This document shows positions 11,234 through 57,400 of a stretch of DNA of 64,000 nt, one piece after another; position 1 is the first letter of the stretch, and every line of letters starts with the position of its first letter. The notes beneath the pieces are model-generated. The model saw only the letters and a list, made by a program, of their open reading frames with translations, was not told where the DNA came from and searched no databases. The stretch lies in the NCBI RefSeq assembly GCF_009914755.1, contig NC_060939.1. One strand, written 5' to 3'. The stretch is from the human T2T-CHM13v2.0 reference genome, Homo sapiens. The position numbers were made by a program, and so were the translations under genes.

Positions 11234-11686
11234 TTTCATGCGCGTCCGTGTGAAGAGACCACCAAACAGGCTGTGTGTGAGCAACATGGCTGTTTATTTC
11301 ACCTGGGTGCACGCGGGCTGCGTCCGAAAAGAGAGTCAGCGAAGGGAGATAAGGGTGGAGCCGTTTTATAGGATTTGGGTAGGTAAAGGAAAATTACAGT
11401 CAAAGGGGGTTTGTTCTCTGGCGGGCAGGAGTGGGGGTCGCAAGATGCTCAGTGGGGGTGTTTTTTGAGCCAGGATGAGCCAGGAAAAGGACTCTCACAA
11501 GATAATGTCATCAGTTAAGGCAAGGACCGGCCATTTACACTTCTTTTGTGGTGGAATGTCATCAGTTAAGGTGGGGCAGGGCATATTCACTTATTTTGTG
11601 ATTCTTCAGTTACTTCAGGCCATCTGGGCGTATACGTGCAAGTCACAGGGGATGCGATGGCTTGGCTTGGTCTCAGAGGCCTGACA
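11234..11686 (-). mobile_element. Solo LTR7 (HERV-H LTR)
   Basis: tttcatgcgcgtccgtgtgaagagaccaccaaacagg...tcagaggcctgaca is reverse LTR7; TACA flanks both sides (partial target-site duplication); no internal HERV-H sequence. Confidence 0.9.
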
Positions 11687-11722
11687 TACACTCCCAGTCT
11701 TTTGGTCACAGGGCTGTGGGAC

Positions 11723-12752
11723 TGAGGAGGGAAATTAAAGAAAAATAAAATTAAAAAGAAAGAGAAATAAATTTTCTTGTATTGGGCTGACTTGTCCCAG
11801 AGGCTTCAACAGGCACAGCCCAGAACCAGTAATAGTCTTGATAATATTATCTAATGTGCTCTGGAGGCTCTCCCAACGCTCCCCCAACATCGGGAAAAGA
11901 AAAACAAATTTCCTTTTTTTACGGAATGAGTTTATAGATTCTTGTTCTCTGTAACTAGTGACTTCAAGTATTCTGTTTTATCTAAGAAGTACAATGTAAG
12001 TCATGAGAAGTCTGAGTAGGCTGAACTACAGCTGTTTGGGCACCATAGTGAGGGTTATAGGATAAGCCCATGCCCAGGGAAACCTAGAAAATGGACATGT
12101 GGGTTGCTTGGCAGCGGTCATGTGCAATCCTGTCTGTCCTGCCTCTGTATCCCTGCTTTCACGCCACTGTAAACTTGCTTCAAGCTAGCCCACCACCTTT
12201 TGTGAAATGTGCATAAAAGTCAGGTTCTGTCTTTGTTCCGGGCCCAGTCTTTTTGATGTGAGTTAGCTTGTCCTCAGTTTCATGCGCGTCCGTGTGAAGA
12301 GACCACCAAACAGGCTTCGTGTAAGCAATAAAAGCTTTTAATCACCTGGATGCAGGCAGGCTGAGTCCGAAAAGAGAGTCAGCAAACTTAGATAGGGATG
12401 GGGCCATTTTATAGGATTTGGGTAGGTAAAGGAAAAAGGGGGATTGTTCTCTGGCGGGCAGGAGTGGGGGGGTCACAAGGTACTCAGTCGGGGAGCTTTT
12501 GAGCCAGGATGAGCCAGGAGAAGGAATTTCACAAGACAATGTCATCAGTTAAGGCAGGAACAGGCCATTTTCACTTCTTTTGTGGTGGAATGTCATCAGT
12601 TAAAACAAGAACCGGCCATCTGGATGTGTACGTGCAGGTCACAGAAGGTACAATGGCTTAGCTTAGGCTCAGAGGCCTGACACTGAGTGCACTCAATAAA
12701 AATTCTCCTGTTTCAACCCGGGGTCTCTCTCATCCTCCTGAATCCCGCAACG
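11723..12752 (+). mobile_element. Solo ERV LTR (family uncertain, possibly LTR66-like), interrupted by an LTR7
   Basis: Starts tgaggagggaaattaaag, has AATAAA at ~12695 and ends cccgcaac(g); flanks gggac/gggag resemble a TSD and sit inside an ACRO1 unit. Confidence 0.65.
12278..12682 (-). mobile_element. Second solo LTR7, nested in the preceding LTR
   Basis: Same LTR7 termini (tttcatgcgcg...ggcctgaca); flanks ctcag/ctgag form a 5-bp TSD with one mismatch. Confidence 0.9.
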
Positions 12753-15620
12753 GGAGAATTCCAGCATGCACCAGGTTCACGGGACAGTGCGCGGTCACTG
12801 AAAGAAGAGTGGGGCGGGGAGGGTGGTGTGCGGCTGTGAGCACCTCTTGTGCTTGCTGGGAGATGTAGTCTTATAAAGACTCCCAGCCCTTTGGTCACAG
12901 GGCTGCAGCACCCCAATTCCAGCATACACCGGAATCAGAGACAGTGCGCGGCGGCAGAGGAAGAGGTAGAGCTGTGCGTGACTCGCTGGGCTTGATGGAA
13001 AATGTAATCTCATGAACACTCCTTAATGAACAGTGCGCCTCACTGGAGGAAAAGGCGGGGCTGTGCAGGCCTTGCTTTGCTTGCTGAGAGATGCTGTCTC
13101 ATAAACACTCCCAGCCCTTTGGTCACAGGGCTGCAGGACTACATTCCCATCATGCACCGGGATCAGGGATAGTGCATGTGCCTGGGTGAAGAGACACAGT
13201 TTTGCGCGCCTCCTTTGGCTTCCTGGGAGATGTAGTTTCATAAAGACACCCAGACTTTTCATTACAGGGCAGCAGGACTACAATCCCAGTATGCACCAAG
13301 ATCAAGGATAGTGCGCGTAACTGCAGAATGAGGCGGGATTGTGCACGCCTCGCTGGACTTGGTGGGATATGTATTCTCATAAACATACCCAACCCTTTGG
13401 TCATAGGGCGGGAAGACTACAATCCCAGCATGCACCTGGCTAAGAGACAGTGCCTGTCACTGGAGGAAGAGGCGGAAGACTACAATCCCAGCCAGCACCG
13501 GGCTCAGGGAAATTGTGCGTCAGTGGAGGAAGAGGCGGGGTTGTGTGCTACTCGCCAGGCTTGCTGGGAGTTGTATTCTCATAAACCCTCCCAGCCCTTT
13601 CATCACAGGGCTGAAGGACTACACTTCCAGCCCCAGCATGCACTGGGCTCAGGGACAGCGCGCGTCACTGGAGGAAGAGGGAGGGCTTTGCGCTTCTAGC
13701 TGTGATTTTTTGGGAGATGTAGTCTCATTAACGCTCCCAGCCCTTTGGTCACAGAGATCCAGGACTGCAATCCCAACATGCACCCAGCTCAGGGATAGTG
13801 CGCTAATCACTGCAGGAAGAGGCAGGGCTGTGTGCACCTCCTGGGCGTACTGGGAGATGTATTCTCATAAACACTCCCATCCCTTTGGTCATAAGCCTGC
13901 AGGACTACAATCCTAGCATGCACCCAGCTCAGTGACAGTGCGCTAGTCTAAGGAGAAAGAGGCAGGGCAGTGTGCGCCTTGCTGGGCTTCCTGGGAGATG
14001 TAGTCCCATGGCCTCTCCCTGCCCTATGGTCACAGTGCTATAAGACTACAATCCCAGCATGCACGGGGCTCAGGGAGAGTCCACATCACTGCAGAAAGAG
14101 GGGCAGGTTGTGCGCACCTCGCTGCGTTTGCTGGGAGATGTTGTTTCATAAAGACTCTCAGACCTTTTGTCACAGGGCTACAGGACTACAATCCCAGGAT
14201 GCATCGGGATCAAAGCAGTATGCGACACGGGGAAAAGATGCGGAGCTGTGTGCGTCTCCCTAGGTCTTCTGGGAGATGTGGTCTCTTGGCCCTTTGGTCA
14301 CAGGGCTGCAGGACTACAATGCCAGCATGCAGCGGGTTCATGGACAGTGTGTATCACTGGAGGAAGACGTGGAGCTGTGCGTGCCTCGCTGGGCTTGCAG
14401 GGAGATGCAGTCTCATAACTACCCCAGTCGTTTGGTCGCAGGGCTGCAGCAGTACAATTTCAGCATATCTCTGGCTCAGGGAGAGTGCACTAGTCACTGG
14501 AGGAAGAGGTAGGTCTGTGCGCACCTCTCTGGGCTTGCTGGGAGAGGTAGTCTCATAAACACTACCAGCCCTTTCATCACATCGCTGTAGGACTACAATT
14601 CCAGCATGCACGGGGCGCCGGGGCAGTCCGCCTCACTGGAGGAAGAGAAAGGCGTGTGAGCGCCTTGCTGGGCTTTCTGGGAGATGTTGTCTCTTTATTT
14701 CTCCCAGCCCTTTGGTCACAGGGCTTCAGGACTACAATCCCAGCATGCATCCTGCTCAGGGACAACGCGCGTCACTGTAGGAAGAGGTGGACCTGTGCTG
14801 TTCTCGCTATGCTTTTTGGGATACGTATTCTCGTAAACACTCCCAGCCCTTTGGTCACTGGGCTGCATCACTACAATCCCAGCATACATCGGGATCAGGG
14901 AGAGTGCGCTAATCAGTGGAGAAAGGGGCGAGGCTCTGCACACCTCGCTGGTCTTGCTGGGAGATGCAGTCTCATAAACACTCCCAGCCCTTTGGTCACT
15001 GGGCTGCAGCGCTACAATCCTAGCATGGACCGGGCGCAGGGAATGTGCGCGTCACTGGAGGAAGAGGCAGGGTTGTGCACGCCTCTCTGGGCTTGGTGGG
15101 AGTTGCAGTCTCATAAACACTCCCAGACCTCTCATCACCGGGCTGCAGGACTACAATCCCAGCATGCACCCGGCTCAGGGAGAGTGCGCATTACTGGAGG
15201 AAAAGTCTAGGCTGTGGATGCCTCCTTCTGCTTGCTGGGAGATGTAGTTTCATAAAGACTCCCAGAACTTGTGTCACAGGGCTGCAGGACTACCATCCCA
15301 TTATGCACTGGGGTCAGGGACACGGCCCGTCAGTGGAGAAAGAGGCGGGGCTGTGTGCGTCTCCTTCGGCTTGCTGGGAGATGTATTCTTATAAACACTC
15401 CCAGCCCTTTGGTCAAAGGGCTACAGGACTACAATCCCAGCATGTGCCAGTCTCGGGGGCGAGGTACAGGCCTGGAAGAAGGGGCAGAGTGGTACACGCC
15501 CCACCTAATATGCTGGGAGCTGTAGTCCGTTAACTGCTCTCAGCCTGTTTGTCGGTAGGCTTCAAAACTATAATCACAGCATGTACCGGGATCCGGGGTG
15601 CATAGCCCTGGAGGGAGGGG
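12753..15620 (+). repeat. ACRO1-type satellite array, ~20 units of ~140 bp
   Basis: gactacaatcccagcatgca-like motif recurs at ~13136, 13276, 13416, 13617, 13762, 13903, 14043, 14183, 14311, 14451, 14591, 14729, 14870, 15011, 15149, 15288, 15426 and 15566. The family name is from recall. Confidence 0.85.
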
Positions 15621-16431
15621 CACAGCGGTGTGGACTTCCCGGTGTCCAAAGCACTGCTGAGTTCTTATGCTATGCCGACTCTTTGCCAAGGAGAATGAGT
15701 ACATAGGTGGACCTAGAGGACAGGTCTGCGCTGAGCATTGAGGAGGGTATTACCCTACATAGGCACCTTACCTTTGCCCAAATCGGGCGGGTTGTCCTCA
15801 ACTGATTGGCCCTATCCTTCTCAAGTTCCTCTTTCAGCTGCACCCAGGGTTCTTTCCAGAGCATTGCGCCTTCTGCAGCCCAGGGCGCTGCCTTCTTTCC
15901 TAAACTGCTGTGGAAACTGTCCTGATGTCTGAGACACTGTCCATTGTGCCGCAGCCCTCTTTTTTCTCTAGCCAAGCCTCATGCTCAATAGCTTTTGAGA
16001 GAAATCTTCCACGTGGCCTGCTTATGAACAGCTTCAGAATTCTGTAGGGGGTGACAAGGTCTGTGGCTTCCTGGAAATGTCACTCTCAATGGCGCCTTTT
16101 TCACGAATGTGAAAGTTGAGGCATCAGGAAGGTTAATTATTGGGTTGCACAAAATCTGCTAAGAGCAAAGGAGAAAACCCCATTTCCGAGGCATGAGTCT
16201 TGTGAGCCATTTTCATCAACCCATTTAAGTGGACAAGCTCCAAAATGAAACCTGAAGCTGCTGACTATTTAGGCATTTTACACTTGAAATCATCGGTCTC
16301 ATCTCAAGTCACTCCTGACTTGCCAGTGTCTCAGAAACACAAATGGGACCGGATCCCTCAGGAGCAGATAGTGTTCCAGCTTTGTTGGAGCAACATTTAA
16401 GATGTGGAGCACTTGGGGTCGTTTGAAACCC

Positions 16432-19400
16432 GCTATCTTCAGTAGGGACTTTTACTTCTAGAGAACATGTGCATTTTGATTTTATCTGTCCTCAAACTGA
16501 ACTTTTGCTCATTTTAATAGTAAAAACACATTCCTAGGTGGAGACTTAAGATGCTAATGAGACATGCAATGTATGCACAAATATGTACAGTTAGTGCACA
16601 TGTGCACCCAGAAGACCACTCAAAACATGCTTACACTAACACTTCTTTCCACCTTCTTATGAATAATCGTGCAAAACCCCCAGAAGGAGGGTTTCTCCAG
16701 TAACAATTAATGGTGTCTCACTCTTATGAGCAGCCTGCCCTGGAATCTCTTTCTCAGAATGTACCGTCTATTCTGCACTTAATTTTCAAAGTAGTCTTTT
16801 CTTTTTTTGTGTGCAATAAATTACTCTATGCTGTACTTCTTTTGCTGTGTGTTTCTTGTTTAAATTCTTTTAAACTAAGAAAATAAGAATCAAGGTATTA
16901 CATCAGCCATCAACATTTCTTTTGCCATGACCTGGAGAGAGGTCTGTCCGCTTCACTGATTTCACTTTCCCTTTACTTGCCGTGAATACTGTGGCACTTC
17001 CAGACTACCTGGTTAACTATCGCTGGTTCTTCCAGCACTGTTTCACTAAAGTTCTGGGGAAACCCTGTCCCTTTAGGCTTTATGCATTTCCCAGCTCCTT
17101 GAAATTGTTCTTCAACAGGCTTTCTTTGCTGAACAAAAGATGCACAGTCATGGATATGCCCAGTCATAGGGATTGAATCTGAGCATTGCAGGTGTTATAA
17201 TTGGGCATCATAAATGGCAAACCACTGAATTAGGGAAAGGCTTGTCAGCCAGACATCTGCTCCCCAGCGAGCAGTGGGGGTCATCTCGGCAGGGCTGGAG
17301 ATGTCCAGCGCTGGTGAGAGCTAGGACGGTGCATGGCAAATGCCTATGACCTCCTAGAGCTTCAGTTAATGGGGTTTCAAGGGGATGAGTTGGACAACTT
17401 GGTGGTTCCACTTGGCTCATGGGGCTGCCCACAGCCTCCTGGACTTTAGTACATGTTCTGTCGTTTGCAGGATTCTCTCGGCACCATGGGAATCACTTCC
17501 TCTACTGTCACTGAAACACACCTGGGATGTATATTTAAAAATTGAAACAGCTTTTGGCTAAATGAAGCAAAAAAACAATTATCTTCTTTTGTAAAACTAT
17601 TTAGCCTGCATACAGATTAGCTGACAAAACATGGCTGGAGAATGAGACTGTGAAATTTAACACCATCATACAGCTAGATCTTTTCTGTAGTAATCAGGGA
17701 AAATGGTCTGAAGTATCCTATGTGCAAGACTTTCTGGCCCGACAACAAAACCCAGCTCCATGCAGCACCTGTGGGCTAAAGCCTAGTAAGCCACAAAGCC
17801 CCTCAGATCCATTAGAAGATCATTTGTTTTATGGGCAAGTGACCCCAGACCCCACAGCCTAATAGCTCCAGATAGGGGCCCTCAGAGGCCTACACCTGCT
17901 TTAGAATCCCCAGCGTCCCCACACTATCAGAGTCTTCTGTAGAATCTAAGCTTGTTTCATCTCCTCCTTATGCTCCTCTATCAGCCTTTGCCAGTTACAA
18001 TAGAGACCAGTCCAGCTGCAGTTACTCACAGTGGAGCTTCACACCATGCAGGGCCAGAGAATTTGATCCGCTTACAGAAAGTCTCAAATGGAGAGAGGAC
18101 CATCAGAGTGCTTGTTCTCTTCCCAATAAATGATCTAATCCAATGTAAGCAACAGCTCTGATGGCTCTCAGACAACTTCAGCGCGTTTACTGAAGCCTTC
18201 CAGTCTCTAACTTTGACCACCATTCAACTTTACCATCCATAAATGGACCCAATGACTGCTGCCAACTCAGCTGCACAAAACTTTTTCTTATTTGCGAAAA
18301 ATAGAAAAGACTTAAAACTTTTGCTGCTTTCACCATTTTAAAGCAGAATACTTTTGCAGCACAAATGTCACCATAAGGTGGATCCTTGGGAATCCAGTAC
18401 AAACTATCTCAGAAAATCTCAGTGTGTCCCCAACAGGCAGCAGAGGGCCTCAATAGACTTCAACAACGTCTGGACTCCATGGCCTCTGTATTCCAACAAA
18501 ATCAAAGAGCCTGGGATCTTCTCCCAGCCAAGCAAAGAGGAACAGGTTTATATCTAAAAGAAGAATGCTGTTTTTTGAGATCAATCAGTCTGGTTTATTC
18601 CAAGAAAATATTAATAATATCATCACCCAGGCAGACAAAATTGAATCTCTAGGAACTTCCATGGGAACATGAAAGCAATGTCCATTGCCTGCCTTGCTCT
18701 CTTTAATAGTCCCCGTCATTATTATATTTTCAACTTCTACTTTTGTTCCAATTTTGTTTAAAATGTTAACTGATTTCCTGCTATGTTGCTTGTGGCAGCT
18801 CCATGTTTGCATGATGGTTTGCAAGGCTTTCAATCTTTGGCTGCCAACATCTTCCCACTGGTTCCACGAACGACATGGTTTACACCCTGTTAGATCACAC
18901 AGGAAGAAACTTTAAGGCCCAGGCTAGGCAGAAGTAACACCCACTCAGCAGGAAACAGCTCCAGAAAAAGTGGTCTAACCCCTCAACCTCCAATATGGTT
19001 ATTGCCCTAAAATCTCTTAGGGGGAAATTGAGGCAGAATAGATAGTACAGAAAATGACCATGATCTCAGGATACAGAAACCATGGTGACTGTACAGCCAA
19101 CACAATAAGCCGTAGCATTCGCATTGTAATTGGGCTTATTCGAGCAAAGCTATCCTCACTAAGGACTTTCTGTTCTAGAGAGCATGTGTATTTTTATTTT
19201 ACCTGCCCTCAAACTTAAATTTTGCTTATTTTAATAGCAAAAAATGCACCCCCTAGCCAGGCACGGTGGCTTATACCTCTACTCTCAGCACTTTGGGAGG
19301 CTGAGGAAGATGGATCACTTCAAACTAGAAGCTCGAGGCTAGACTGGCCAACATAGAGAAACCCCGTCTAAATTAAAAATACAAAAATTAGTAGGGTATG

Positions 19401-19935
19401 ATGGTGCATGCCTGTAATCCCAGATACTCAGGAGGCAGAGGCACGAGCATGGCTTGAACTCAGGAGGCAGAGGTTGCAGTGAGCAGAGATCACACCACTG
19501 CACCCCAGCTTGGGCAACACGGCGAGACTCTGTCTCAAACAAACAAACAAATAAACACACAGAAATACACTCCTGGGTGGAAATATAAGATGCTAATGAG
19601 ACATGCAACATATGAACAAGCATGTACAGCTACTGCGCATATGCACCCAGAATACCACAGAGAACATGTTTACTAGCAACTCCTCTTCCCTCCTCCTTAT
19701 TAATAATAATGTAAAACTCCCATAAAGGGGTTTCTCCAGCGACAATCCACACTGTCTCACTCTTATGAGCAGTCCGCCCTGGAATATCTCTCTCAGGGTG
19801 TACTGTATTCTGCACTTAACTTTCAAATATTTTCTTTTCCAATAAATTATGCTGTACTTTTTTTCTTTGTGTCTCTTGTTTAAATTCTTAAAATCTAGGA
19901 AGACAAGAACAGAGGTATCACATCAGTTGTCAACA
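16432..19935 (+). mobile_element. Internally deleted ERV1 provirus (MER50-like): truncated 5' LTR ~16432-16915, gag and env remnants, 3' LTR 19029-19935
   Basis: Two homologous LTRs (agatgctaatgagacatgcaa...aataaatta...catca..caaca); gag MA-like NTIIQLDLFCSNQGKWSEVSYVQ; env ISD/CX6CC-like QNQRAWDLL..KQRGTGLYLKEECCF; polypurine tract tagggggaaat before tgaggcag. Confidence 0.85.
19255..19563 (+). mobile_element. Alu inserted in the 3' LTR
   Basis: gccaggcacggtggc...gagactctgtctc followed by an (AAAC)n tail; LTR homology resumes after it. Confidence 0.9.
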
Positions 19936-22900
19936 CAGCAATAAGTCAGCCTCCTTCTTGTAAGCATAGCCCATGCAGAAAAGGAGAGTCGCATCACCTA
20001 GGTGCTGGATCCAGAGGTATGTCACAATTTATCCCATGCACAAAGTTAAGGTCATTGAGGAGAGTCGTATTAAATAATTTCTGGGCCCAGGGATTTGTCA
20101 CAACAGCTCCTGTGAGAAGAGATCAGGCAGCATAATCACATAACCGGTGTGCTGGGCACAGCGATAAGCCACCTTTCATCTGTGGGCATGACCCAGGCAA
20201 GAAAGAAGAGTCACGGCATTTAGGTGCTTGCTGCAGAGGTACATAACAATCTCTCTTATGGGCAAAGCTCAGGTAAGAGAGAAGAGTCAAATCTCCAAGG
20301 TGATTCATGTAGAAATTTGTCACAAGAGACTTTTTAGGCAGGGCCCATGTTGGATCTTCTTATCTTCCAGAAGTTAGGTACAGGGATATGTCAGAATACC
20401 CAAAATACACAGGACTCAGTCAATAAAGAAGAGCCACATCACCCAGGTGCTGGGTCTAGACATATGTCACATCTCTTTTATGGGGAAAGCTCAGGTAAAA
20501 AAGGAAGGTCACATCAAATAGTTGATAGACCCAGAGATATGTCACATTGCCTCCTGCTTGAAGTGTCTAGGCCAAAGACTCACATCACATTGGTGCTAGG
20601 CCTGTGTTCATATATAAACATTCAACTAGAGTTGAAATGGTGGCTCGTTTCTAAACCCTGCTTATAGGCAAGGGATGAGTCTCCTATCCTGACATAGTTA
20701 ATTGTAATGATGTTGACTCTCATCCCTGGGCTTAATGCTACAAGTATGATCATGGGTCCCTACCAATAGGAAGGTCTCAAAGTTGATTACAACTCTCATT
20801 CATACAGTATAGGGCCATTGGGTAGTACACAGAGAGTGCTAACTGGGCCGAGCACACAGGTGAGACTGTGACACTCATATGCACACCCAGCCAACAGTAA
20901 CTATTGTCATCCTCTCACGGGAACACAAGTCAGTCTGCAGAGGAATTGAGGCTCTCATGTGCAAATCCAGTCTGGTGTTGAGATGGTTATTCGTGGGCTT
21001 AGATCCAACATACAGGAGGTGTTGAATGTCATGCCTACCACTGAGACAGCTGTGGGATTGTTAATCTAATTCCTGGACCATTCTGCAGCTTCCATTGTGA
21101 AATTTCCCAGTGCCTAGCACCTAAGTGACTTGACGGGCTCGCATGGACCCAGCCCACAGATGGGATATTAACATATTGCTGGATCCAGCACATTGAGGAT
21201 GTAACTCTATTCTCCTTCCTTGGCACTGCCCACAGTGAGCAGTTTGACATATCGCTAGACCTTACACTCAGGTGATGTGAGTCTCCTCTTCTGCCTTGGC
21301 GCTGCCCTCAGGAAGCGTTGTTACATATAGCTTGGCCTCGCATCCAGGTTATGTGACTCTCCGGCTTGTGCACTGCCCATATGGGACACTGTGTTAATAT
21401 TGCTGGGTCCACTACTCAGGCGATGTAAACCAACAGCCTGGGCCCTGCCTTACAGGGGCATTGTGACATATCTCTGTGCTCATCAGCCTGGTAATGTGAT
21501 TCTCTTCTCCTGCCTGGTCCCTTTACACAGAAGGGATTGTGACACGTTGCTGGGCTTAGCACCAAGTTGATGTTGATGTGAATCTTCTGCCTGGATCGAG
21601 TTCACAGAAGGCATAGTGACATACCTCTGGGTGCATCACCTATTTGATGAGACTCTCCTCTCTTACCTGAGCATTGCCCATAAGAGAGATTGTGACATAT
21701 CCCTGGGTCTAGCACCGGGATGATGTGAATTCTCCCTGCCTGGGTCATGCCCACAGAAGGAAGTGTGACTTATAACTGGGCACAGCACAGGGGTGATGTG
21801 ATTCTTCTGCCTGGTCCCTACATAGAGGAGTCATTGTCAAATGCCTCTGGGCCCATCATCTAGACTATGTGACTCTCTACTTCTTCCTAGGGCCTGCTCG
21901 CATAAGGATTGTGACATATTACATGCCCTACATCATGTGACTTTTCTCTCATGTCTGGGCTCCGTCTTGGAGATGAATGTGACACATACCTAGGCCTAGC
22001 CCCTAGGTTCTGTAACTTCTCGTTTTTCAAAATCCTACCCACCAGGGGCATTGAAACATCTCTCTGGGCACTTCACTTAGGTAATGTTACCCTGTTGCCT
22101 GGAGTGTCCCCTCTGGGGGGTATGGTGACATATTGCTGGACACAGTACCTATGTGATATTACTCTCCTTTCTTGCCTGGGCCTTGTATACATTATGTATT
22201 CTAATATATGGCTGGGTTCAATGACTAGGTGATGCAACTCTTATGCATAGACCCTACCCACAGGGACATTATGACATTTCTTTAGCTCTGACTCTCCTCT
22301 TTTTCCTTAGCCCTGCCAAAAAGGGAGGTGGTGACATATAACTGGACCTAGCAACCAGCTAATATGAGTCTCCTCTTTTGCCTGCACCCAGCATATTTTA
22401 GGTGTTGTATCATATCCTTTGTCTCAACACCTGCAGGATGAAATGCTCCTGCCTGAGCCCAGCCATCTGTCAAAATTGTCATTCTCCCACACGAACATGG
22501 ACCATAATTGAGGTTCTGAAACTCACACCCAGAGGCAGTCAAAAGTTGGAAAATTGGCTCTAATAAGTGGATATTGTCTGCAAGTGGGCTTGTGACTCCC
22601 TGACCAAGATCCAAAACACTTGTGAGGCTGTGAGTCCACTAAGATAACTCCGTTTTCAAAAGGGATTAAGGCTCTCATGGAAAAAACCCATTCCTCCATT
22701 GAGATTGTGACTTATGCACATAGATGCAACATACAGGAGGCGTTCACTCTCATACCCAGAACCGGAACTTATGTGGGATTGTTAATCTCATCCATGGACC
22801 TTCCTGCAGGTGTGATTCTGACGTACACCTCTAGCCAGCTCCTGAGTGATTTGACATTTTTGCCTGGGTGTAGCCCACAGATGAGATTGTGATATATCTC

Positions 22901-24700
22901 TGAATCCAGCATCTAATTAATATGCTTCTATTCTCCTGTCTTGGCACTGCCCATAATGGGTATCCTGACCTAACACTGGTCCTGGCACTTTGTTATGTGA
23001 CTCTGTCCTGTGCTTTGCCCACATGAGCCATTGTGACATATTGCTGGGTCCAACACCCAGGTGATGTAACTCTTGTCTAGACTTTGCCTACAGGGGGCAT
23101 TGTGACATATCTCTACACTGACCACCCAGGTGATGGGACTCACTTCTCCTGACTGCTACCTGTTTATAGCAGGGATTGTTACAAATCGTTGCGGGCAGAC
23201 TCTAGGTAATGTGACTGTCTTTTTACAGAGCGCTACCCACAGGAGCCATTGCAAAATATTTGTGGGCCTCTCACCTAAATGTAGTGACTCTTTGCCTGGG
23301 CTCATTTCTCAGGGGTATTGTGACATATGGCTGACCTCAGCACCAAGGTGAACTGAGTTTCTTCTACTGTAGGGCTCTGACCAAAGAGAGATTACAATGT
23401 ATCACCGGGCCCAGCACCTGAGCTATGTGATTCTCCGCTCTTGGCTGCGCCCTACATTTATTGTGTATTGTGACATATCACTGGGTCCAACACGTAGGTA
23501 AGGTGACTCACCTGCATGGGCCATTTCCCCATGGGTACTATGAAGTATTTTTTGTTCATCACTTAGGTGATGCAACTCTCCTCTTTGCCTTGGGCCCCAC
23601 ATAATTTAGCTATTGTGATGTATCACTGGGCGAATCACCTAGTCAATAGGAAGCTTCTACCAAGACCCTGACTACTGAGGGCCTTGTGACATAGCTCTGC
23701 ATTTATCACCTAGAAAATATGATCCCCCCCCCATTTCTGCCTGAACCCTGCTCACAAGAAAAATTGTAGCATATTTCTGGGCCCAGCAAACAGGTGATGT
23801 GTTTCACCTGCCTGTGCTTAGTTCACAGGGAAAATTGTGACATATCACTGGGCCCAGAACCCAGGTGAGGTGACTCTGCTGCATGTGTCGTGCTTTCAGG
23901 AGGGAACAAGAACATATCCCTGGCAGAACTCTTAGGGATGTGACTCTCTTGCCTTGTCCCTGTCCTCAGGGAAGACTGCAACATGTCCCTGACACAGACC
24001 CAGGTGATGAGACTCTCCTGCTTCTGACTACCCAAATGTGAGATTGTCACATATATTTTGGCCTAGCATGTAGGTGTGACGATGACATTCATACCTTAAA
24101 CCAACCAATAGCAGAGATACTTTCTCTCACAGCCAGGCTTAACAAAACTTGCAAAATTATGGGTCTTCTCTTACTATGAAGGTCAGAGAAAGTAAGCACT
24201 CTTGCATATCCTGTAAAGCACTCAGATGGTACAGTGTCATCACAGGGCCCAGAACACAGGTGAGATTGTGTTCTCTGTGTGCACACCCACCAATCATCAG
24301 AATTCTCATTCCTACACAGGAACAGAGGTGATTAGGGAGGTCTAAGTCTCATACCTGAGTGCCGTCCACAGCGGGAATTGTAACTATCACATGTGAACAT
24401 CCAGTTACAGTTGGGATAGTGACTTATTTCTGAACCCAGTTTACAGCCAAGTAAAGATCCTCTTATCTGGATCCAGCCAGCTGGAGAGATGTTGACTCTT
24501 ATACCTGGACTTATGGCCACAGGTATGATCATAGGTTCATATCAGCATGAAGACCTCAGAGTGGATTATGTTTAATGCATACTCTACAAGGCCCACAGGA
24601 GGTACATAGTGTCCTAACAGGGCCCAGCAAACAGGTGAGATTCTAACACTCATGCACACTCTGGTGACAATAAAAGTTACCATCCTCAAAAATGGGCACA

Positions 24701-24836
24701 ACCAGCGTGGCTCAGTGGCTCACACCTGTAATCACAGCACTTTGGGAAGCCGAGGCGGACAGATCATGAGATCAGGAGATCAAGACCATCCTGGCCAACA
24801 TGGTGAAACCACGTCTCTCTACTATTTATGATTATG

Positions 24837-24878
<42 letters not shown>

Positions 24879-25342
24879 TTGAGACAGAGTCTTGCTCTGT
24901 CACCCAGACTGGAGTGCAGTGGCACCATCTAGGCTTACTGCAACATCCGCCTCCCGGGTTCAAACAATTCTCTTGTTTCAGCTTCCCGAGTAGCAGGGAA
25001 TACAGGCTCATGCCACCATTCCCAGCTAATTTTTGTGTTTTTAGTGGAGACGGGGTTTCACCATATTGATTAGGCTGGTCTCAAACTCCTGACCTCAGGT
25101 GATCCACCCAACTCGACCTCCCAAAGTGCTGGGATTACAGGCATGGGACACTGTGCCTGTCCACCCCATCTCTACTAAAAATACAAAAATTAGCTGAGCG
25201 TCATGGCACATACCTGCAATCCCAGCTACTCGGGAAACTGAGGCAAGAGAGTTGCTTGAACCCAGGAGGCAGAGGTTGCAGAGAGCCGAGATCGCCCCAC
25301 TGCACTCCAGCCTGGCGATAGAGTGAGACTCCGTCTCAAGGG
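24701..25342. mobile_element. Nested Alus: plus-strand Alu split by a minus-strand Alu (~24823-25160) with a (TAT)n tail
   Basis: Left arm ends at ..cgtctctacta, reverse Alu follows, then the plus Alu resumes at ccccatctctactaaaaatac with the junction duplicated. Confidence 0.85.
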
Positions 25343-25345
25343 ACC

Positions 25346-25695
<350 letters not shown>

Positions 25696-28600
25696 TTGAC
25701 TCTCATATATGGATCTTGTCCACAGGTAGGTGGGTGACTCTCAAACCAAAATTCATTACATCTGTGAGACTGTAACTCTCCTAAGGGGAGAAGTTCTTCT
25801 CAGCCAGAGAAGACTCATTTATGAATCCAGTTCACTGTTGAGATTGGGACTGTTGTACCTAGGCCAAACATACAAATTCTCATACCTGGAATCCGGACAT
25901 GTGTGGAGTTGTTCATCTCATCCCTGTCGCTTTCTGCAGGTGGGATTGTGACATACATCTCTGCCCAGCTCCTGAGTGTTTTAGCTCTGTTTCCTGTGTC
26001 CAGCTCACAGATGGGATTCTGATATATCACTGAAGCCAGCACCTAGATGATGTGACTCTTATCTCCTGCCTTGGTGCTGCCCACAGGGAACATTGGGACA
26101 TATCACTTGGCCTTGCACCTAGGTAATGTATGTTTTCTGCCTTGCATTAGTGCTACTCACAGGGGTGTTGTGATGTATTGCTGGGTCCCACATCCATGTT
26201 ATGTGACTCTTCTGCCTGTGCCCAGTCCACAATGGCCATTTTGACATATTGTTGCATCGAAAACCTAGATGATTTACCTCTCCTTCCTGAGCTTTGCCTA
26301 AGGGGACATTGTGAAATATCTATGAGCCCATCACCCATGTGGTGTGATTTTCTTCTCCTGCCTAGTCCCTGCTTAAAGAAAGGATTGTGACATATCACTG
26401 TGCCCAGCACCTATCTCATGTTACTCTTCTTTTGTTTTTTAGGATTTGTTTGGAAGGAGATTGTGATACATTGGTGGGTCCAACTTCTCGGTGACATTAC
26501 TCTGTTGACTGTGCTCTGCAAGCAGAAAGCACTGTGACACATTATTGGGCCCAACACCAAGGTGAGTCTCCTGCCTGAAGCCTGCCTACAGCAAGTTGTA
26601 ACATATGGCATTGGGACATATCTCTGAGCCCATCAACTATTTGACAAGATTCTCCTTTTTTAACAAAGGCTTTGCCCATAGGAGAGATTGTGACATAATT
26701 CTGAGCCCAGAAAATAGGGGATATTTCTTTTGTTTTCTGCTTGAGCCCCACATTGTGATGTATTTCTCCTCCCAACAACTGAGGGAAGGGAAAGTCCTGC
26801 CTGGGTCTTGCCTACGGGGAGCCTTGTGAAATCTTTCCGTGTTCATCACCTTAAATATGTGACCCTCATCTTCTGCCATGGCCATGTTTACAGAAGGGAG
26901 AGTGGGTTATTCCTACACCCAGCACACAGGTCATGTGATTCTGCATCCTGGTGTCTCCAGAGGGGTCATTTTGACATATCTCTAGACTCATCAACTAGAT
27001 AATGTAATGCTCCTCTTCCCCCTGAAACCTATCCATAGTGGAGATTGTGAAATACAGCCTGGCACAGCACCTACATGATGGTACTCTCTTCTCATGCTTG
27101 GGTGCTGGCCACAGGGGTGATTAAGACTTATAGCTGGGTACAGTCTTCAGGTGATGTAACTCTCCTCTATTTTTGGGCCCACACACACAGGGAACTACCA
27201 TATAGCTCTGCTCCTCAGTCTTAGGTGATGTGACTCTGCTGTCTGTTACCTCCTCTTAGGGGGAATTGTGATATATTGCTGGGCCCAGAACCGAGGTGAT
27301 GTGGCCTTTTCTCTTGCCTGGGCCCTGCATACATGGTGTACAGTAACATATATCTGGGTTGAACAAATAGGTGATGTGACTCTTCTGCATAGGTCTTGCC
27401 AACAGGGGTATTATGACATACTCTTCTATTCATTGCCTAGGCGATGTGACTCTCCACTCTTACCTGGGTCCTTCCAAAAGAGGGGATTGTGACATATCAC
27501 TGACCCTAACACCAAGGTAATGTGACTGTTCTCTTTTGCCTGGGTTTGCATATTTTGGGTATTGTGACATATCCCTGGGCCCAACACTTAGGGAATAAGA
27601 GGTTTATTCCTCTACCTTACGTGCAGTGAAGCTTGTGACATATTTCTGCATTCATCACCAAGAAGATGTGACTCTTCTGCCTGCATCCTGACCACAGAGA
27701 GGATTGTGAAATATTGCTAGATCCAGCATGCAGGTGATGTGTCTCTGCTGCCTGGTTCCTAATGTGAGGAGTGGATTGCAACATACCAATGCCTGAACAT
27801 TCAGGTAATGTGACTGTTGCCTGGTCCCTGTCCTCAGGGAAGCGACATATCACTGGCCCAGCGTCCAACTGATTTTACTCTCCTGCTCTCTTCCTATATG
27901 CAGGTGTAATTGTGACATATATCTTGGAACACAACACACAGGTGCAATGACGACATTCATATGTCAAACCAGCCAATAGAAGAGATACTGCTTCTCCTAG
28001 CTACACTTAGGGAAATGAAAAAAAACCCTGGGTCTCCTCGCTAAGATCATCCACTCTCTCATATATTACAGAAAGCCCTCGGGTGGTAGAGAGTCTTATC
28101 ACAGGGCCCAGCACACAGGTGAAATTTGTTACTCCTATGCGCACCCTGCACCCTCCTGACCATTATGATTTTCACCCTCACATATAAACAGAACCCACTG
28201 GTGAGGTCCTGAATTTCACACATGAATGCAGTTTATAGTTGGAATTGCGAATCTCATATGTAAAGATCTGGCCACAGTTGGAATGGGAACTTCGTTATAA
28301 ACCCAGCGCATAGAAAGCTGATGATTCTCTTATCTGGACCCCGCCAATTGTAAAGATGTTGACTCATATATAGGCTTAGGGCCACAGGTTTGATCCTGGG
28401 TCCATACCAGCATGAAAATCTCAGAAAGAATTGAGACTGTCATGCATACAACATAAAGCCGTCAGGTGCAACACAGAAAGTCCTAATAGGGCTCAGCACA
28501 CAGTAATATAATGACATTGGGATGCACACCCAGCCAACATTAAAGATTGTCGTTCTTTCACATGATCATAGTTCACTTTTGAGGCTCTGAATCCCATACC

Positions 28601-31600
28601 CAAAGGCAGATTGAAAAGTTGAAAAATTGACTCTCATATTTGAGAGTCACAGATGTGTTGATGACTCTCAGATCATGAGTCAGCACACCTAGGAAGCTGT
28701 GATTTCAATTAGGGGACAAAGTACGCAAGAGAAAATGGGGCTGCCATGCACAAATTTAGTCCACTATTGAGATAGTGACTTGTGTACTTAGATCAAACAT
28801 ACAGAAGGTGTTCACTCTCATGCGTAAAACCAGAATATGTGCGGGATTCATCCCATATCTGGACTTTCCTGCAGGTGTCATTGTGACAAGCATACACATT
28901 TGTCCAGCACCTGAGTGATTAGACTCTTCTGTTTAAGCCCAGCTCACAAATAAAATTGGGACATATCATTGGACCTAGAACATAGGTGATGTGGCTCTAT
29001 TCTCTTGCCTTCGTGCTGCCCACAGGGAGCATTGTAACGTATCACTGAACTTAACACCTAGGAGATTAGAGGCTCCTGCCTGAACTCTGTCCACAGTGAG
29101 CCTTGTAACATATTTCTGCTTCCAACACCAGATGATGTGACTCTCCTTTCTGCCTGCACCTTGCCCACAGGAAAGATTCTGACATATCACTGGGCCCAGT
29201 AATCAGTAATCAGGTGATGTTTCTCTCCTGCTATGGCCTTGCCCACAGGGAGTGTGGTGACATATCACTGAGCTCAATATTCAGGTGATTTGACTCTGCT
29301 GCTTGTACTCTGATTTCAGGAGGGGATTGTAACATATCCCGAGTGAGCACACAAGTGATGGGACTCCCCTCCTAGCCTCTGACCTCAGAAAACATTGTTA
29401 CATATCCCTGGCCCAGCCTTAGGTATGTGACTCTCCTACCTGTTCCCTGCCATCAGGGAAGATATTGACAGATCTCAGGCCAAGCATCCCGGTGACGTGA
29501 CTCTCCTGCTCACTCCCTACCCACAGAAGAGATTGAAACATATATCTTGGCCAGCTCACAGGTGTAATAATGACTCTCATACCTCAAACCTGCCACTAAG
29601 AGAAATGCTGTTTTTCATAGGGAGGCTTTGGAAAACCGGTAGGTCTTAACTCTTCCTTTTGTATGAAGGTCTTAGAGGAATACAACTCTCTCATATTATA
29701 TAAAGCTCTTAAATGGTACAAAGAGTGTTATCACAGGGATATGTTGCATAACCTATGGGAGGGGCCCAGTTATATGTCACAATTAACCCAGGGGGCAGGG
29801 CACAGGCATGAAAAGAGAGTCACACCACATATGTGCTGGCCTAAGTGATACATCATCATCCCCACTGTGTACAGGTCGCAGTAAGAACAGGAGAGTCACA
29901 TCATTCTAATAATGGTCTCAGAGATACATCACAATGACTCCCCTGGGCAGAAAGAAGGGATAAGGTTCACATCACCTGTGGGCTAGGCCCAGAGATGTCA
30001 CTCTTACTTCTGTGGGCATGTCTCAGGCTGGAGAGGAGAATCACATTACCTAAGCACTGGATCAAGAAATACTTCACAATCTTTCTCATGGGCAAAGCCC
30101 AGGTAAGAGAATAGAGCCATATCAAATAGTTCATGGGCTCAGAGATATGTCACAATGCTCCCTGTGGGCAGGGTTCAGGTAGGACAATCACATTACCTTG
30201 GTGCTTGTTCAGCAATATATCCCAAAGCCTTCTGAGGGCAGAGCCAAGACAAAAGAGTAAAATCATTTTGGTGTTTTACAAATCGATATGTCACAATCTC
30301 CCCCGAGGGCAGAACCTGAAAAAAGGGAAGAGTCACATTAGCTAAATGCTGCGCTGGGTGATAAGTCACAATTCACCCTGTAGGCAGAGACTAGACAGAA
30401 GATAGAGTCACATCATCTAGTGGCTGGTGCAGAGATATGCCACCATGCCCTCTGTAGGCAGAGTTCAGACAGGAGAGTTATGTCACCTGTGTTTTGGACC
30501 CAGAAATATGTCACAAAAGCCCATGGACAGAGCACAGGAAAGACAGGCACATAACCTGAATATCAGCTTCAGTGGTATGTCCCAATGCCTCCTGTGAGCG
30601 TTCCAAGGCAGGAGAGGAAACTCATATTACCTGTGTGCAAGACCCAGTGATACGTCACACGGAGGATTACCACTGTCATGCATATTGTGTAAACTATGGT
30701 AGAGAAATTGTCACCAAAGGGCTCAGCACACTGGTGAGATTATACTTCTCAGATGCACACCAAACCAATATTCAGGATGGTCTCTATCACACGTGGAGAG
30801 AGCCCACTCTTGAGGTCCTGAATTACACATGCAGACATAGTCCACAACTGGGATTCTGACTTTCATATGTGAACATCCAGCCACAGGTGGGATGGTGACT
30901 CATTTTTAAACGCAGCTCATAGGCAGTTAAGAACTCTTATTTGGACCCATCCAAGTAGAAAGATGTTGACTGTCATACCAGGGCTTAAAGCTAAAGGTAC
31001 AAGGAGGGGTCCGTGCCTGCTTAAGGTTTCAGAGAGAATTGTTACACTCATGCATACTCTATAAAGGCTGCATATGGTGAAGAGAGTGTCCTGACAGGGC
31101 CCAGAACAAAAGTAGATTGTGACACTCATATCTACGCTGAGCCAAGAGTAAAAATTGTCATCTTTTCACATGAACACAGCCCATTGTTGAGGTTCCAAAT
31201 CTCACACCTGGAGGCGGTTGAGAGATGAATAATTGACTCTCATAAGTGGATGCGATCCATGTTTGAGTCAGTGACTCTAAAACCAACATTCAGCAAACAC
31301 GTGAGGCTGTGACTCCATTAAGGGGCCACGGTCCTCGGGAAAGACTGAAGCTGCCATGCACAGATCCAGTGCACCATTGAGACTGTGACTTCTACACTTA
31401 GACCCAACAAACACAATGTGTTTGCTCTCACACCTAGATATGGGACATGTGCAGGATTGTCAGTCTCAGCCCTGGACTTTCCTGGAGGTATAACTGTGAA
31501 ATATATCTCGGCCCAGCTCGTGAGTGACTTGACTCTTCTGCGTAGCCCAGCCCATGATAAAATTGTGACATTATTGAACCCAGCACCTATGACCCCCCTC

Positions 31601-32414
31601 TTCTGCCTGGGTCCTGTCAAAAAGAGAGATTGTAACAAATCACTGGGACAATCACCCACATGATGTGACTCTCCTCTTTTCCCTGGGCCCTGCATATTTT
31701 GTATATTGTGACATACTGCTGGGCATAATACCTAGGGAATTGATGGCTACTGCCTGAGCCCTGTTCACAGGGGGCCTTGGGACATCTCTCTGCATTCACC
31801 ACCTAAAAAAAGTGTGTGCACCCTGCCTACAAAGAAGATTGTAGCAGATCACTTGTCTTAGCAACCAAGTGATGCGAGTCTCCTGTCCTGCCTTGGTGCT
31901 GCTCACAGGGGACATTATAACATATACTTGGTGCTGCACCCATGTTTTGTAATTTTTCTGCCAGGGGTCTACCATATAAGCTATATTGCTGGGTCCAACA
32001 CCCAGGTTATGCAGCTCTCCTTTCTGTGCTCTGCCTACAGGGGACATTGTGACTTATCTCTGCACCCATCACTCAGGTGATGTGACTTGCTTCTGCTGAC
32101 TGATTCCTGTTCAAGTGGAGATTGTGACATATCAATGGGGGCACCATCTAGCTGATGTAACTATTCTCTTCTGCCTAGGTTCTTCCTGCAGTGGAAATTG
32201 TGATGTATCACTGGGCTTAACACCAAAGTGACATTAATTTTTTGCCTTGGTTCTTCCCTCAGAAGACATTGTAATATATTGCTGGGCTCAGCACCAAAAC
32301 GATGTGGATTTCCTGTCTGGACCCTGCATACAGGAGTCCCTGTGACATATCTCTCGACTCATCAACTATTTGATGTGACTCTCCTCTGTTCCCTGAGCTT
32401 TGCCTATAGGAAAG

Positions 32415-36237: not shown

Positions 36238-37094
36238 AAGTGTCAAAAGTAATTCCTTCAAATGCAGGAAATTATGTAGCTACTCACAAACTAAACTTCT
36301 CAAACAAAAGTCATAAATAGAGTACAGAGATAAAAAATAAAATAAAATCTAACTACATCTGTCTACAGGGGATTCAATTTATTTATTTATTTATTTATTT
36401 TAGAGACATGGTATTGCTTTGTTTCCCAGGCTGGTCTCAAACTTCTGGGCTCAAGTTAACCTCCCACCTCAATCTCCTAAAATGCTTGGATGACAGATAT
36501 GAGCCATCTTACTATATAGTAACAAAAACAGACTAAAAGTGGCAAGATGCATCAAAACAATTTTATGCAAATCGTAATGAAATGAAGACAATGTCATGAG
36601 CACATTATGCAAAATACTTTTTAAATAACTGTCTTAGTTTATAAAATAAACTATAAGTTAAAACTGTCAAAGAAAACAAAGGACAAAATAATAAAAAAGT
36701 TTATTCACTGGAAACCTAGGAAAATTATATACATTTATATAATACACGTTTATATAATTGTGTGTATTTATCTAATTATGTATACAGACACACATATATA
36801 TGAACCTCACATGAAGATTTTAAAATAAATCAATAATATTTTGTCAGAACATAAACAAAAAACTGCAATATACTGAGAACAATATTTTAATACACCAGTT
36901 CTGTAATTAATAATAAAGCCAGAGAGAATGTTAAAAAGAAAACAGAGGACATGAAAATAATGTAAAACAGTTAGATGTAACAGATGCATAGAGATCACTC
37001 TACACAACAACAAAACTCACAGTCTTGTCAAAAGCTCATAAAACATTGTCCTAAAAATAAATATAAGGAAAAAAATTTTTTAACAGAATTAAAA

Positions 37095-55799: not shown

Positions 55800-57400
55800 G
55801 GCGCTGCAGACGGTGACATTTTCACGAAGGAGCCACAGCCCGCATCACCCCCTGAAAGCTCTGAAGTTGCGCACGGGTGGGTCACGCAGCAGGTGGATGT
55901 CTCAGTTCCCATAGAGTTTAGCAGAGCAGGCGGCTCCCTGGGCTGGAAGAGGTGCGATGCTCTGGAAACCCCCCGCGGGTGTGTATGTGAGAGGACACCG
56001 AGATGTTCAGCGGGCTGTTCAGTGAGGACCAGACCCCTCCGATTTGAGCAAGGGAGGTGCACTTCGCAGGGTCACACCGTCCTCATCGCCCAGCCTAGAC
56101 CTGCCCCTCAAGTCCTTCTGCGGACTCCCTTGGCGAGGGGGTGGCACAGAATCAGCATGTGGCATCGCTTAGGAAAGGACGAGGTCCACACCGCCCTGTC
56201 CCTCCCTCCAGGGCTGCGCACCACGGGGGAGGACAGACAGCGCATGCTGGTTTTGTAGTTAGCAGGTCGGCGACCAATGGGCTGGAAACCGTTAAGACAC
56301 CAAAACTCCCAGCACTCCTAGCTAGGGACGCGCCTCCCTATCCTTCGTTTCCATACTACACACCGCCCCCAAACCCAGCGCATGCTGAGATTGTAGTCCG
56401 TTAGCCTCGCGACCAATGGGCTGGAAATACTGAAAGGACTATGACTCCCAGGATGCCTTGCGAGGTACCCGCCGTCCCGATCCTTCCTCTAGGGCTGCGC
56501 ACCGCCCCCAAGCCCAACGCATGCTGGGATTGTAGTCAGGTAATCCTGGGACCAACTGACTGGAAACTGTTAAGAGACCATAACTCCCAGCACGCCTGGC
56601 TAAGGACGCACCTCCCTATCCTTCCCTTCAGTGCTACACACCGCCTCGAAGCCCGGTGGCTGCTGGGATTTTAGTCTGCAGGCCGGGGGCCATCGCTGGA
56701 AACCATTAAGAGACCATAACTCCCAGCATCCCTGGCCAGGGACGCGCCTCTCTATCCTTCCCTCCAGCGTTACACACCGCCCCAATCCCGGTGCATGCTG
56801 GCATTGTAGTTCGGTAGCCTTGCGATCAACGTGCTGGAAACTGTTTAAGGACTATGACTCCCAGGACGCCTTGCGAGGGACCCACCCTGTTGACCCTTCC
56901 TCCAGGGCTGGGAACCTCCCTTAAGCCCAGCGCATGCTGGGATCATAGTCCGACTGCCGCGACAGAAAGGCTGGGAGTGGATCTGAGACTACAGTTCCAA
57001 CACTACGGGGAAAATTTCATCTTCTCTGAGACTACAGTTCCAACACTGAGGGGATAATTTCATCTTCTCCTCCGCCCCTCCATGTTTCCAGTGCAATTCC
57101 GCCCTGCTGAGGGGAGCCTATCTGTTCCCAAACTTCTGCGTGCGAGGAGACAGCGTGGCCAGGGCAGGTGGTCTCACTTGTAATTGTGACACAGTCTCCC
57201 CACGTGCCACTTGTACGACTATTTGTCCCTGAAGTTTGATTTCTCTCTGACAAGACAGAGCCCGGGAGCCTCCAACAGCCTGCCCAGCGTTGCCGTAAAG
57301 CTTGCTCTCGGGGACCTGGGCGCGCCCAGACCTTTGCAGGGCCCCTCCCTCAGCCCCGACCCTTCTCCTCGCCCCTCCCCTGCCACGCCCCTTTCGACAT
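55800..57400. promoter_or_regulatory. CpG-rich island, putative promoter with clustered ZNF143/THAP11-type motifs and GC boxes
   Basis: High GC and CpG against an AT-rich background; gactatgactcccag (twice), gaccataactcccag (twice), reverse gactacaatcccagcatg, ccgccc boxes and ccaat motifs. Activity is inferred only. Confidence 0.6.
56225..57070 (-). repeat. Short diverged ACRO1-like array (~6 units, ~138 bp), inverted relative to the main array
   Basis: catgctgggattgtagtc-like motif at ~56243, 56382, 56520, 56660, 56794 and 56933. Confidence 0.8.

What the first reader, a model, noticed from the sequence alone, without database searches (positions are those of the whole stretch)
12753..15620. 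ACRO1 unit carries two opposed ZNF143/THAP11-type motifs, about 40 sites in 2.9 kb
Seen: each unit has gctgggagatgtagtc (reverse GACTACATCTCCCAGC, fitting ACTAYRnnnCCCR) and, ~38 nt later, GACTACAATCCCAGCATGCA on the other strand (spacer 1 nt shorter than canonical). Established: ACTACAnnTCCCAnnATGC is the ZNF143 (Staf)/THAP11-HCFC1 promoter element, common at bidirectional CpG promoters. Inference: the satellite could act as a high-valency binding platform, factor sink or methylation-gated promoter. I cannot say whether this has already been reported.
Basis: partly seen in the sequence, partly recalled or inferred. Interest (0 to 1): 0.7.

Follow-up and report, generated by a model that had tools for sequence, protein, structure and literature searches.

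The report
Amplified ZNF143-type promoter beside rDNA
Next to the human ribosomal DNA, this 2.9-kb repeat is about twenty aged copies of a promoter piece whose short relatives on chromosome 19 bind the activator ZNF143, so ZNF143 likely helps keep this known open-chromatin island active, although binding at the repeat itself is untested.

Summary
The motifs are real, but the name and the count are wrong. The array is 20 units of 139 bp, unrelated to true 147-bp ACRO1, which has neither motif. By period and position it is ACRO138 of the rDNA distal junction, published as open, H3K4me3-marked and transcribed (PMC3847771). Each unit has two opposed sites: A, canonical ZNF143/THAP11 spacing (exact in 6 of 20), and B, one base short (10 exact). 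About 23 of 39 keep the ZNF143 core, not 40. The addition here: the unit and its 3' flank belong to a dispersed 1-6-unit promoter family on chr7, 16, 19, 20, 3, 4 and 10. Two chr19 members, the LOC284440 and LOC148189 promoters, are ZNF143 ChIP-seq peaks in 4 of 4 cell lines (PMC3627581). Core motif columns are modestly more conserved (0.91 vs 0.86), though not between palindrome arms. Best reading: a tandemly amplified, partly decayed ZNF143-type lncRNA promoter. Binding at the array itself is untested. A factor sink and direct methylation gating are unlikely. Three searches found no paper linking ZNF143 to ACRO138.

The parts
12753..15620 (+). ACRO138 array: 20 units of 139 bp (one 89-bp and one 129-bp unit, one 63-bp partial duplication near 13438-13500). 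Units are 71% identical pairwise and 83% to their consensus, with a star-like tree. Each unit is an imperfect inverted repeat with motifs A and B as its arms.
12857..15526 (-). Motif A, canonical SBS2/M4 spacing, one per unit. Exact ACTAYRNNNCCCR at 12857, 13224, 13711, 13992, 15236 and 15514 (13-bp matches). SBS positions 8-12 read CAAGC in 9 of 20 and CATGC in 0 of 20, whereas most chr7/chr19 relatives keep CATGC.
13138..15439 (+). Motif B: good SBS1-type core (CATGC in 10 of 19) with ACTACA 1 nt closer than canonical. Exact at 13138, 13277, 13416, 13479, 14045, 14185, 14731, 14870, 15150 and 15428. The 18-mer form occurs 71 times genome-wide, all in loci of this family.
15625..15633 (+). 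Position homologous to the annotated start of LOC284440 (NR_026956) in the chr19 relative, just past the last B site. It is an inferred ancestral transcription start.
   Evidence: peak summit and TSS offset, read onto L029, mapped
15620..16430 (+). 3' flank shared (68-79%) with chr7, chr16, chr19, chr9 and chrX copies; GC box at 15785, CCAAT (reverse) at 15805. Homology to the distant copies ends near 16430, where a dispersed repeat begins.
13906..14508 (+). Predicted first exon of lncRNA LOC124907540, starting inside the array; GTAGGT donor at 14509 in one unit.
   Evidence: hub annotation (predicted); donor seen
11683..11723 (+). Remnant of a further unit, cut off from the array by an insertion.
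56238..56998 (-). Second array of the same family (about 5.5 units, 66% to the first, opposite orientation), with 2 exact M4 and 2 exact short-spacer sites and CpG o/e 0.63. About 45 kb nearer the rDNA; present on all five acrocentrics.

Best explanation
The array is ACRO138, about 20 aged tandem copies of the ZNF143-motif module of a dispersed primate promoter family, and ZNF143 likely binds its surviving sites and likely helps keep this block of the rDNA distal junction open and transcribed. Shown here: the unit, the two opposed sites, the family and the shared 3' flank. Shown in print: ZNF143 peaks on two chr19 members, and open chromatin, H3K4me3 and transcription at ACRO138. Inferred: a 1-5-unit lncRNA promoter from the KRAB-zinc-finger cluster neighbourhood was copied towards the acrocentrics, expanded in one old burst (star tree, 83% to consensus) and was then duplicated with the palindrome. 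ZNF143, or ZNF76, which shares its sites, would read the outward-facing 18-bp cores on both strands and start transcription at many points, giving the short transcripts reported. THAP11/HCFC1 would be limited to the few intact A sites.
For: Family: units plus flank on C19 (19.91, 20.19, 30.32 Mb), C7 (ten places, 56.7-65.5 Mb), C16, C20, C3, C4, C10, C14 and C22. Four C7 modules lie 29-55 kb from KRAB exons. Binding: PMC3627581 Tables S4/S6 list ZNF143 peaks in 4 of 4 lines at LOC284440 (929/810/500/338 reads, summit 98 bp from the start; sequence matches L029 by eye) and at LOC148189 (737/375/378/609 reads, called bidirectional; matches L061 by eye). The authors' scan calls B-type sites as SBS. 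ACTACAN does not change ZNF143 affinity (Kd 1.36 vs 1.58 nM), so B's short spacer need not block ZNF143. One SBS suffices for bidirectional activity (PMC3082894). Conservation: 24 core columns 0.908 vs 0.857 base-matched, p=0.0012; 43/468 changes vs 94/686 in the A-B spacer, p=0.012; distant copies 0.875 vs 0.767; variable sites among five acrocentrics 3/1168 core vs 46/4758 other, p=0.007. Chromatin.
Against: No binding data at the array itself. Only 6 of 20 A sites are exact M4, and A has lost the ATGC that bound relatives keep. Between the two palindrome arms cores are not significantly spared: 18/252 vs 95/1070, p=0.23; in four of six related loci the gap is also small. The shift controls rank the core pattern first of 139 but barely (0.908 vs 0.905; tie at 0.875). 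Copies share ancestry, so p-values are overstated, and distant copies were found and aligned by similarity to this consensus. CpG o/e is 0.42 against 0.52-0.79 in five short chr7/chr19 copies, and CpG columns diverge about 2.3-fold faster, which suggests partial germline methylation. The exact B 13-mer appears in only two human peaks (both this family) and no mouse peak, and the LOC284440 summit sits on an A site, so B binding is unproven. Only 2 family members were found in the peak tables.
Confidence: 0.6

Rival explanations
1. Decaying relic: the motifs are inherited from the ancestral promoter but most no longer matter. Openness comes from the terminal unit and 3' flank (GC box, CCAAT) or from the LTR-like inserts at the 5' edge, and the inner units are passengers.
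For: Exact M4 in only 6 of 20 units; ATGC lost at A; no significant core sparing between arms; CpG loss; two related LTR-like inserts within 1.5 kb of the array; no recent homogenisation.
Against: Core columns are conserved above base-matched columns in three tests. The second arm lacks both younger inserts yet is also reported as an open peak.
Confidence: 0.27
2. THAP11/HCFC1 platform: the ACTACA modules, B's above all, recruit THAP11-HCFC1, and the array acts as a repressive or chromatin-modifying hub more than as a ZNF143 promoter.
For: B's ACTACA is among the best-kept parts (7/114 changes; ACTAYR in 14 of 19) and stays conserved in distant copies. One study finds ACTAYR alone sufficient for THAP11/HCF-1 in pulldown (PMC5006282).
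Against: Another study finds THAP11 only at SBS2 loci in cells and no binding to ACTACAA alone in gel shift (PMC3627581). B has non-canonical spacing, and A's ACTACA is the most decayed part (16/120).
Confidence: 0.07
3. Factor sink or structural scaffold: the arrays on ten distal junctions titrate ZNF143/THAP11 or tether the NORs through multivalent binding.
For: About 47 units per distal junction in three blocks on all five acrocentrics.
Against: About 280 intact cores per haploid genome against 4,682 peaks. Copy number is nearly fixed and the units are old and unhomogenised.
Confidence: 0.06

Closest known systems
ACRO138 (Floutsakou et al. 2013, PMC3847771)
   Same: 138/139-bp period; two blocks in the arms of the distal-junction inverted repeat, about 156 kb apart on C15 (published 138 and 290-297 kb); all five acrocentrics.
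   Different: Published as a novel repeat unique in kind, without motif content or origin in the passages read. A third, short block (window 56238-56998) and the dispersed family are not mentioned there. Its consensus (Supplemental Fig. 10) could not be read.
ACRO1 satellite / ACRO composite (PMC2588610, PMC7714431)
   Same: GC-rich tandem repeat on acrocentric short arms; similar name and unit size.
   Different: 147-bp unit in a 6.3-kb composite; no sequence similarity; neither motif present.
LOC284440 and LOC148189 promoters on chr19 (LINC00663 and LINC00662 by recall)
   Same: Same unit with A and B sites, same 3' flank (71-79%); ZNF143 peaks in 4 of 4 lines.
   Different: 2.5 and about 5 units, not 20. 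The L029 copy keeps a near-textbook A site and CpG o/e 0.52.
SBS1 / SBS2 (M4) elements of ZNF143, ZNF76 and THAP11-HCFC1 (PMC3627581, PMC3082894, PMC5006282)
   Same: A has SBS2 layout; A and B have the CCCR + C12 core; opposed multiple sites as in bidirectional promoters.
   Different: B's accessory ACTACA is 1 nt closer, a form almost confined to this family. The array is not a CpG island by o/e (0.42).

Membership tests
ACRO1 satellite | 147-bp unit | tested here: not met
   period 139; true ACRO1 block has 147
ACRO1 satellite | Sequence similarity to ACRO1 | tested here: not met
   best nhmmer E 2.9 in L063/L064; no blastn hit to the array
ACRO1 satellite | Embedded in a ~6-kb composite repeat | tested here: not met
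   composite copies recur every ~6.3 kb elsewhere; this array's copies show no such spacing
ACRO1 satellite | Translation resembles Pol II CTD (23/49, global alignment, PMC7714431) | tested here: not met
   best 11/49, ungapped, so not the identical test
ACRO138 | ~138-bp tandem repeat | tested here: met
   139 bp
ACRO138 | Two blocks in the distal-junction inverted-repeat arms at 138 and 290-297 kb, on all acrocentrics | tested here: met
   99-100% copies on C13/14/21/22 and inverted copies ~156 kb away; C13 copy is 147-150 kb before the first listed 5.8S gene, i.e. ~138 kb into the junction using recalled offsets
ACRO138 | Identity to the published consensus | not testable with these tools
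   supplement not readable
ACRO138 | Open chromatin and transcription | not testable with these tools
   taken from print; predicted lncRNA start in hub annotation
ZNF143 site (SBS1) | CCCR at positions 3-6 and C at 12 (PMC3082894) | tested here: met
   13 of 20 A and 10 of 19 B
ZNF143 site (SBS1) | Occupancy in cells at this array | not testable with these tools
   only homologues have peaks in the tables read; no chrUn rows there
SBS2 / M4 / THAP11 site | ACTAYRNNNCCCR spacing, motif A | tested here: met
   exact in 6 of 20 units
SBS2 / M4 / THAP11 site | ACTAYRNNNCCCR spacing, motif B | tested here: not met
   0 plus-strand exact matches in the array
CpG-island promoter | GC > 50% and CpG o/e > 0.6 | tested here: not met
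   GC 0.56, o/e 0.42; second array 0.58 and 0.63
MLT1J-derived SBS2 (PMC3627581) | Similarity to the MLT1J LTR | not testable with these tools
   no repeat library held

The most novel reading that the evidence does not exclude
ZNF143 occupies long arrays on all ten distal junctions and is the factor that opens these promoters inside perinucleolar heterochromatin, tying nucleolar-organizer anchoring to ZNF143. The family-specific short-spacer site recruits ZNF143 without THAP11/HCFC1, and the distal-junction palindrome was built from pieces of the primate KRAB-zinc-finger cluster neighbourhood of chr19/chr7.
Probability: 0.2. Interest if true: 0.75.

Novelty: new variant of a known kind. Interest (0 to 1): 0.52.

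Why it matters
The distal junction has promoters at about 45-kb spacing inside perinucleolar heterochromatin, and depleting some of its transcripts causes nucleolar stress. The papers read here do not say what opens these promoters. Two blocks in this window, about 45 kb apart, and the mirror block in the other arm are copies of one promoter family with a named candidate activator. Existing ZNF143 degron ChIP-seq and PRO-seq data could test this at once on T2T. It also gives ACRO138 an origin, shows a promoter turning into a satellite-like array, and corrects the ACRO1/ACRO138 confusion.

Tried and rejected
ACRO1 identity: rejected. Coding role: none supported; the tandem consensus has stops in its frames. 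Homogenised satellite or higher-order repeat: rejected by a star-like tree and 49-83% pairwise identity. B as a common bound variant: rejected, since the exact 13-mer has 3 occurrences in 2 peaks against 102 occurrences (some counted in two columns) of one canonical 14-mer in the human table, and 0 in the mouse table. Direct methylation gating: no CpG in the 24 core columns. A 12.5-kb genome search returned no scored result; two shorter ones did. The gene neighbours of the chr7/chr19 copies were not read from sequence, so names other than those in PMC3627581 are recalled. Vinckevicius 2015, recalled to show that ACTACA spacing matters for THAP11/HCFC1, is not held and is not used as evidence. 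Supplements of PMC3847771 and PMC10097779 could not be read. The latter lists experimentally supported factor sites at GL000220 6-8 kb, which by recalled offsets may be the second array and may already name ZNF143.

Full report
Observation. Tandem Repeats Finder gives a 139-bp period over 13032-15444 and a second 139-bp array at 56238-56952. Splitting on a motif anchor gives 20 units from 12794 to 15589, matched by a profile search. Each unit has motif A on the minus strand and, about 38 nt on, motif B on the plus strand; the unit is an imperfect inverted repeat with A and B as arms. Exact ACTAYRNNNCCCR occurs 6 times in the array and the 1-nt-short form 10 times, against about 0.4 each expected per window. 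Per unit, chance is about 0.06% for each site type. The figure of 40 counts positions. By the published definition (CCCR at 3-6, C at 12; PMC3082894, passages), 13 of 20 A and 10 of 19 B cores are intact; A keeps ACTAYR in 6 of 20 and B in 14 of 19.

It is not ACRO1. ACRO1 is a 147-bp unit in a 6-kb composite (PMC7714431 passages and supplement passages; PMC2588610 passages). A published primer located 202 composite copies at about 6.3-kb spacing. One copy from C15:1.94 Mb holds 10.6 units of 147 bp, has no similarity to the window's unit, and has neither motif.

It is ACRO138. The array has 99-100% copies on the other four acrocentrics and inverted 78-90% copies about 156 kb away. The C13 copy lies 147-150 kb before the first listed 5.8S gene (40 matches listed), which is about 138 kb into the distal junction using recalled offsets. 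PMC3847771 (passages) describes two blocks of a novel 138-bp repeat at 138 and 290-297 kb, in open chromatin, with transcription confirmed at 138 kb; a review calls the transcripts short and possibly eRNA-like (PMC4973289, passages). The published consensus could not be read, so identity rests on period, position and symmetry.

Origin. Genome searches with the array, the second array and the 3' flank (counts are lower bounds) find the unit with the same 800-bp 3' flank at many places: about 1 unit on C16, 2.5-5 on C7 and C19, 3.5-4.5 on C3, C4, C10, C14 and C22, 6.5 on C20, C21 and C22, and 20-23 in the two arms. The 3.5-6.5-unit copies join window 10845 straight to the last units and probably lost sequence by deletion (inference). 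Four C7 modules lie 29-55 kb from KRAB exons (150 of 693 candidates scored). The stretch holding downstream exons of the predicted lncRNA (25800-27900) matches clustered repeats at C19 21.6-24.2 Mb and C7 65.8 Mb at 65-74%. Units are 71% alike and 83% to consensus with a star-like tree: one old burst, no recent homogenisation.

Binding of relatives. In PMC3627581 (passages; supplementary Tables S4-S6 searched by term) ZNF143 peaks in 4 of 4 lines cover the LOC284440 promoter, whose summit sequence matches the units of L029 by eye, and the bidirectional LOC148189 promoter, which matches the five-unit L061. The LOC284440 summit falls on an A site; the LOC148189 summit falls between a B and an A site. 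The annotated LOC284440 start maps to window 15625-15633, just past the last B site. The paper also reports ZNF143 enrichment at chr19 KRAB-gene promoters and equal affinity with or without ACTACAN. Four other names or labels searched (ZNF736, ZNF727, LOC401074, chrUn) had no rows, so only two members are shown bound, and the array itself was not seen in those tables.

Constraint. For: the 24 literature-defined core columns are 0.908 conserved against 0.857 for base-matched columns (p=0.0012), with 43/468 changes against 94/686 in the A-B spacer and 144/797 in the linker. In 15 regions from 14 distant loci, chosen from 60 then held as non-redundant, cores are 0.875 against 0.767 (exact A in 11 of 29 and exact B in 17 of 38 rows, gapped rows dropped). 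Among the five acrocentric copies of all three blocks, variable sites are 3/1168 in cores against 46/4758 elsewhere (p=0.007). Against: arm 1 versus arm 2 gives 18/252 against 95/1070 (p=0.23); shift controls are won narrowly or tied; copies are related, so p-values are generous; A has changed ATGC to AAGC in the expanded unit; CpG columns diverge about 2.3-fold faster and o/e is 0.42. The picture is weak, partial constraint on a decaying array.

Motif B. The exact 18-mer occurs 71 times in the genome, all in this family's loci. The 13-mer is in 2 human peaks, both family members, and in no mouse peak. It is a family-specific form, kept across distant copies. Its SBS core is closer to the canonical site than A's, so ZNF143 binding is plausible; THAP11 binding is doubtful, and the papers disagree on whether ACTAYR alone suffices (PMC5006282 passages). 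ZNF143 reads a degenerate 29-base site (bioRxiv 2024.05.13.594008, passages and section 6).

Mechanism. Best (0.6): an amplified ZNF143-type promoter in which ZNF143 or ZNF76 binds the 20-odd surviving cores, keeps the block open and starts many short transcripts, with a main plus-strand start predicted near 15630. Rivals: decaying relic opened by the terminal unit, flank or LTR-like inserts (0.27); THAP11/HCFC1 hub (0.07); sink or scaffold (0.06), since about 280 intact cores per haploid genome is about 6% of 4,682 peaks.

Novelty. ACRO138 and its open chromatin are known, as are ZNF143 peaks at the two chr19 promoters. The link between them was not found: 0 papers hold ACRO1*/ACRO138 with ZNF143; none of 8 listed holds both 'distal junction' and ZNF143; of 43 papers, 20 were listed and one mentions ZNF143 once (listing only); 5 listed papers mention ACRO138. 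Term look-ups in PMC10097779, PMC6942050 and bioRxiv 2025.12.22.696095 found no ZNF143, and in that preprint and PMC12940165 no KRAB or ZNF. PMC8997349, PMC11795452 and PMC12802695 were seen as passages only. Most subscription journals are not searched, and the unread supplement of PMC10097779 may list ZNF143 at the second array. Verdict: real, misnamed, half as multivalent as claimed, a new variant of a known kind of promoter, and directly testable with existing data. Interest 0.52.

Noticed in passing
window 11234-11687 and 12279-12682: Two related LTR-like inserts (87% identical over 401 columns, same orientation; LTR7/HERV-H type by recall, not tested) are absent from the second palindrome arm. 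A third, older insert at about 11725-12752, present in both arms, splits the first unit. Three insertions in 1.5 kb may mark a site open in the germline or early embryo.
   Followed up: partly
window 56238-56998: Third distal-junction block of the same family, CpG-island-like, about 45 kb from the first; it fits the published ~45-kb promoter spacing and lies inside predicted lncRNA LOC124907541.
   Followed up: partly
window about 19200-36500: Degenerate internal repeats; 25800-27900 matches clustered repeats at C19 21.6-24.2 Mb and C7 65.8 Mb at 65-74%, suggesting that more of the palindrome derives from the KRAB-cluster neighbourhood.
   Followed up: partly
L019 (C4:193417582-193418220) and L021 (C10:134600343-134600830): 3.5-4.5-unit copies in the 4q and 10q subtelomeres; by recall these lie just proximal to the D4Z4 arrays, where DUX4 enhancers have been described. 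Not checked.
   Followed up: no
L036, L037, L047 (C23 51.76-51.81 Mb), L038 (C9 21.45 Mb); C9 132.51 Mb and C6 4.87 Mb: Isolated copies of the 3' flank without detected units (C23, C9), and a single unit-like hit (C6), far from the clusters; the module may once have been mobile or retrocopied.
   Followed up: no
L006-L010 versus window: The second-arm array varies in unit number: the C22 copy has one unit fewer than C13, C14, C15 and C21.
   Followed up: no
L061 about 1600-1700: A short tandem expansion interrupts one unit of the LOC148189 promoter array.
   Followed up: no
G000:C15:58827, C21:55741, C22:57418, C4:58865: KRAB exons with identical scores near the tips of three acrocentric short arms and 4p, another trace of KRAB-gene segments on the acrocentrics.
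   Followed up: no
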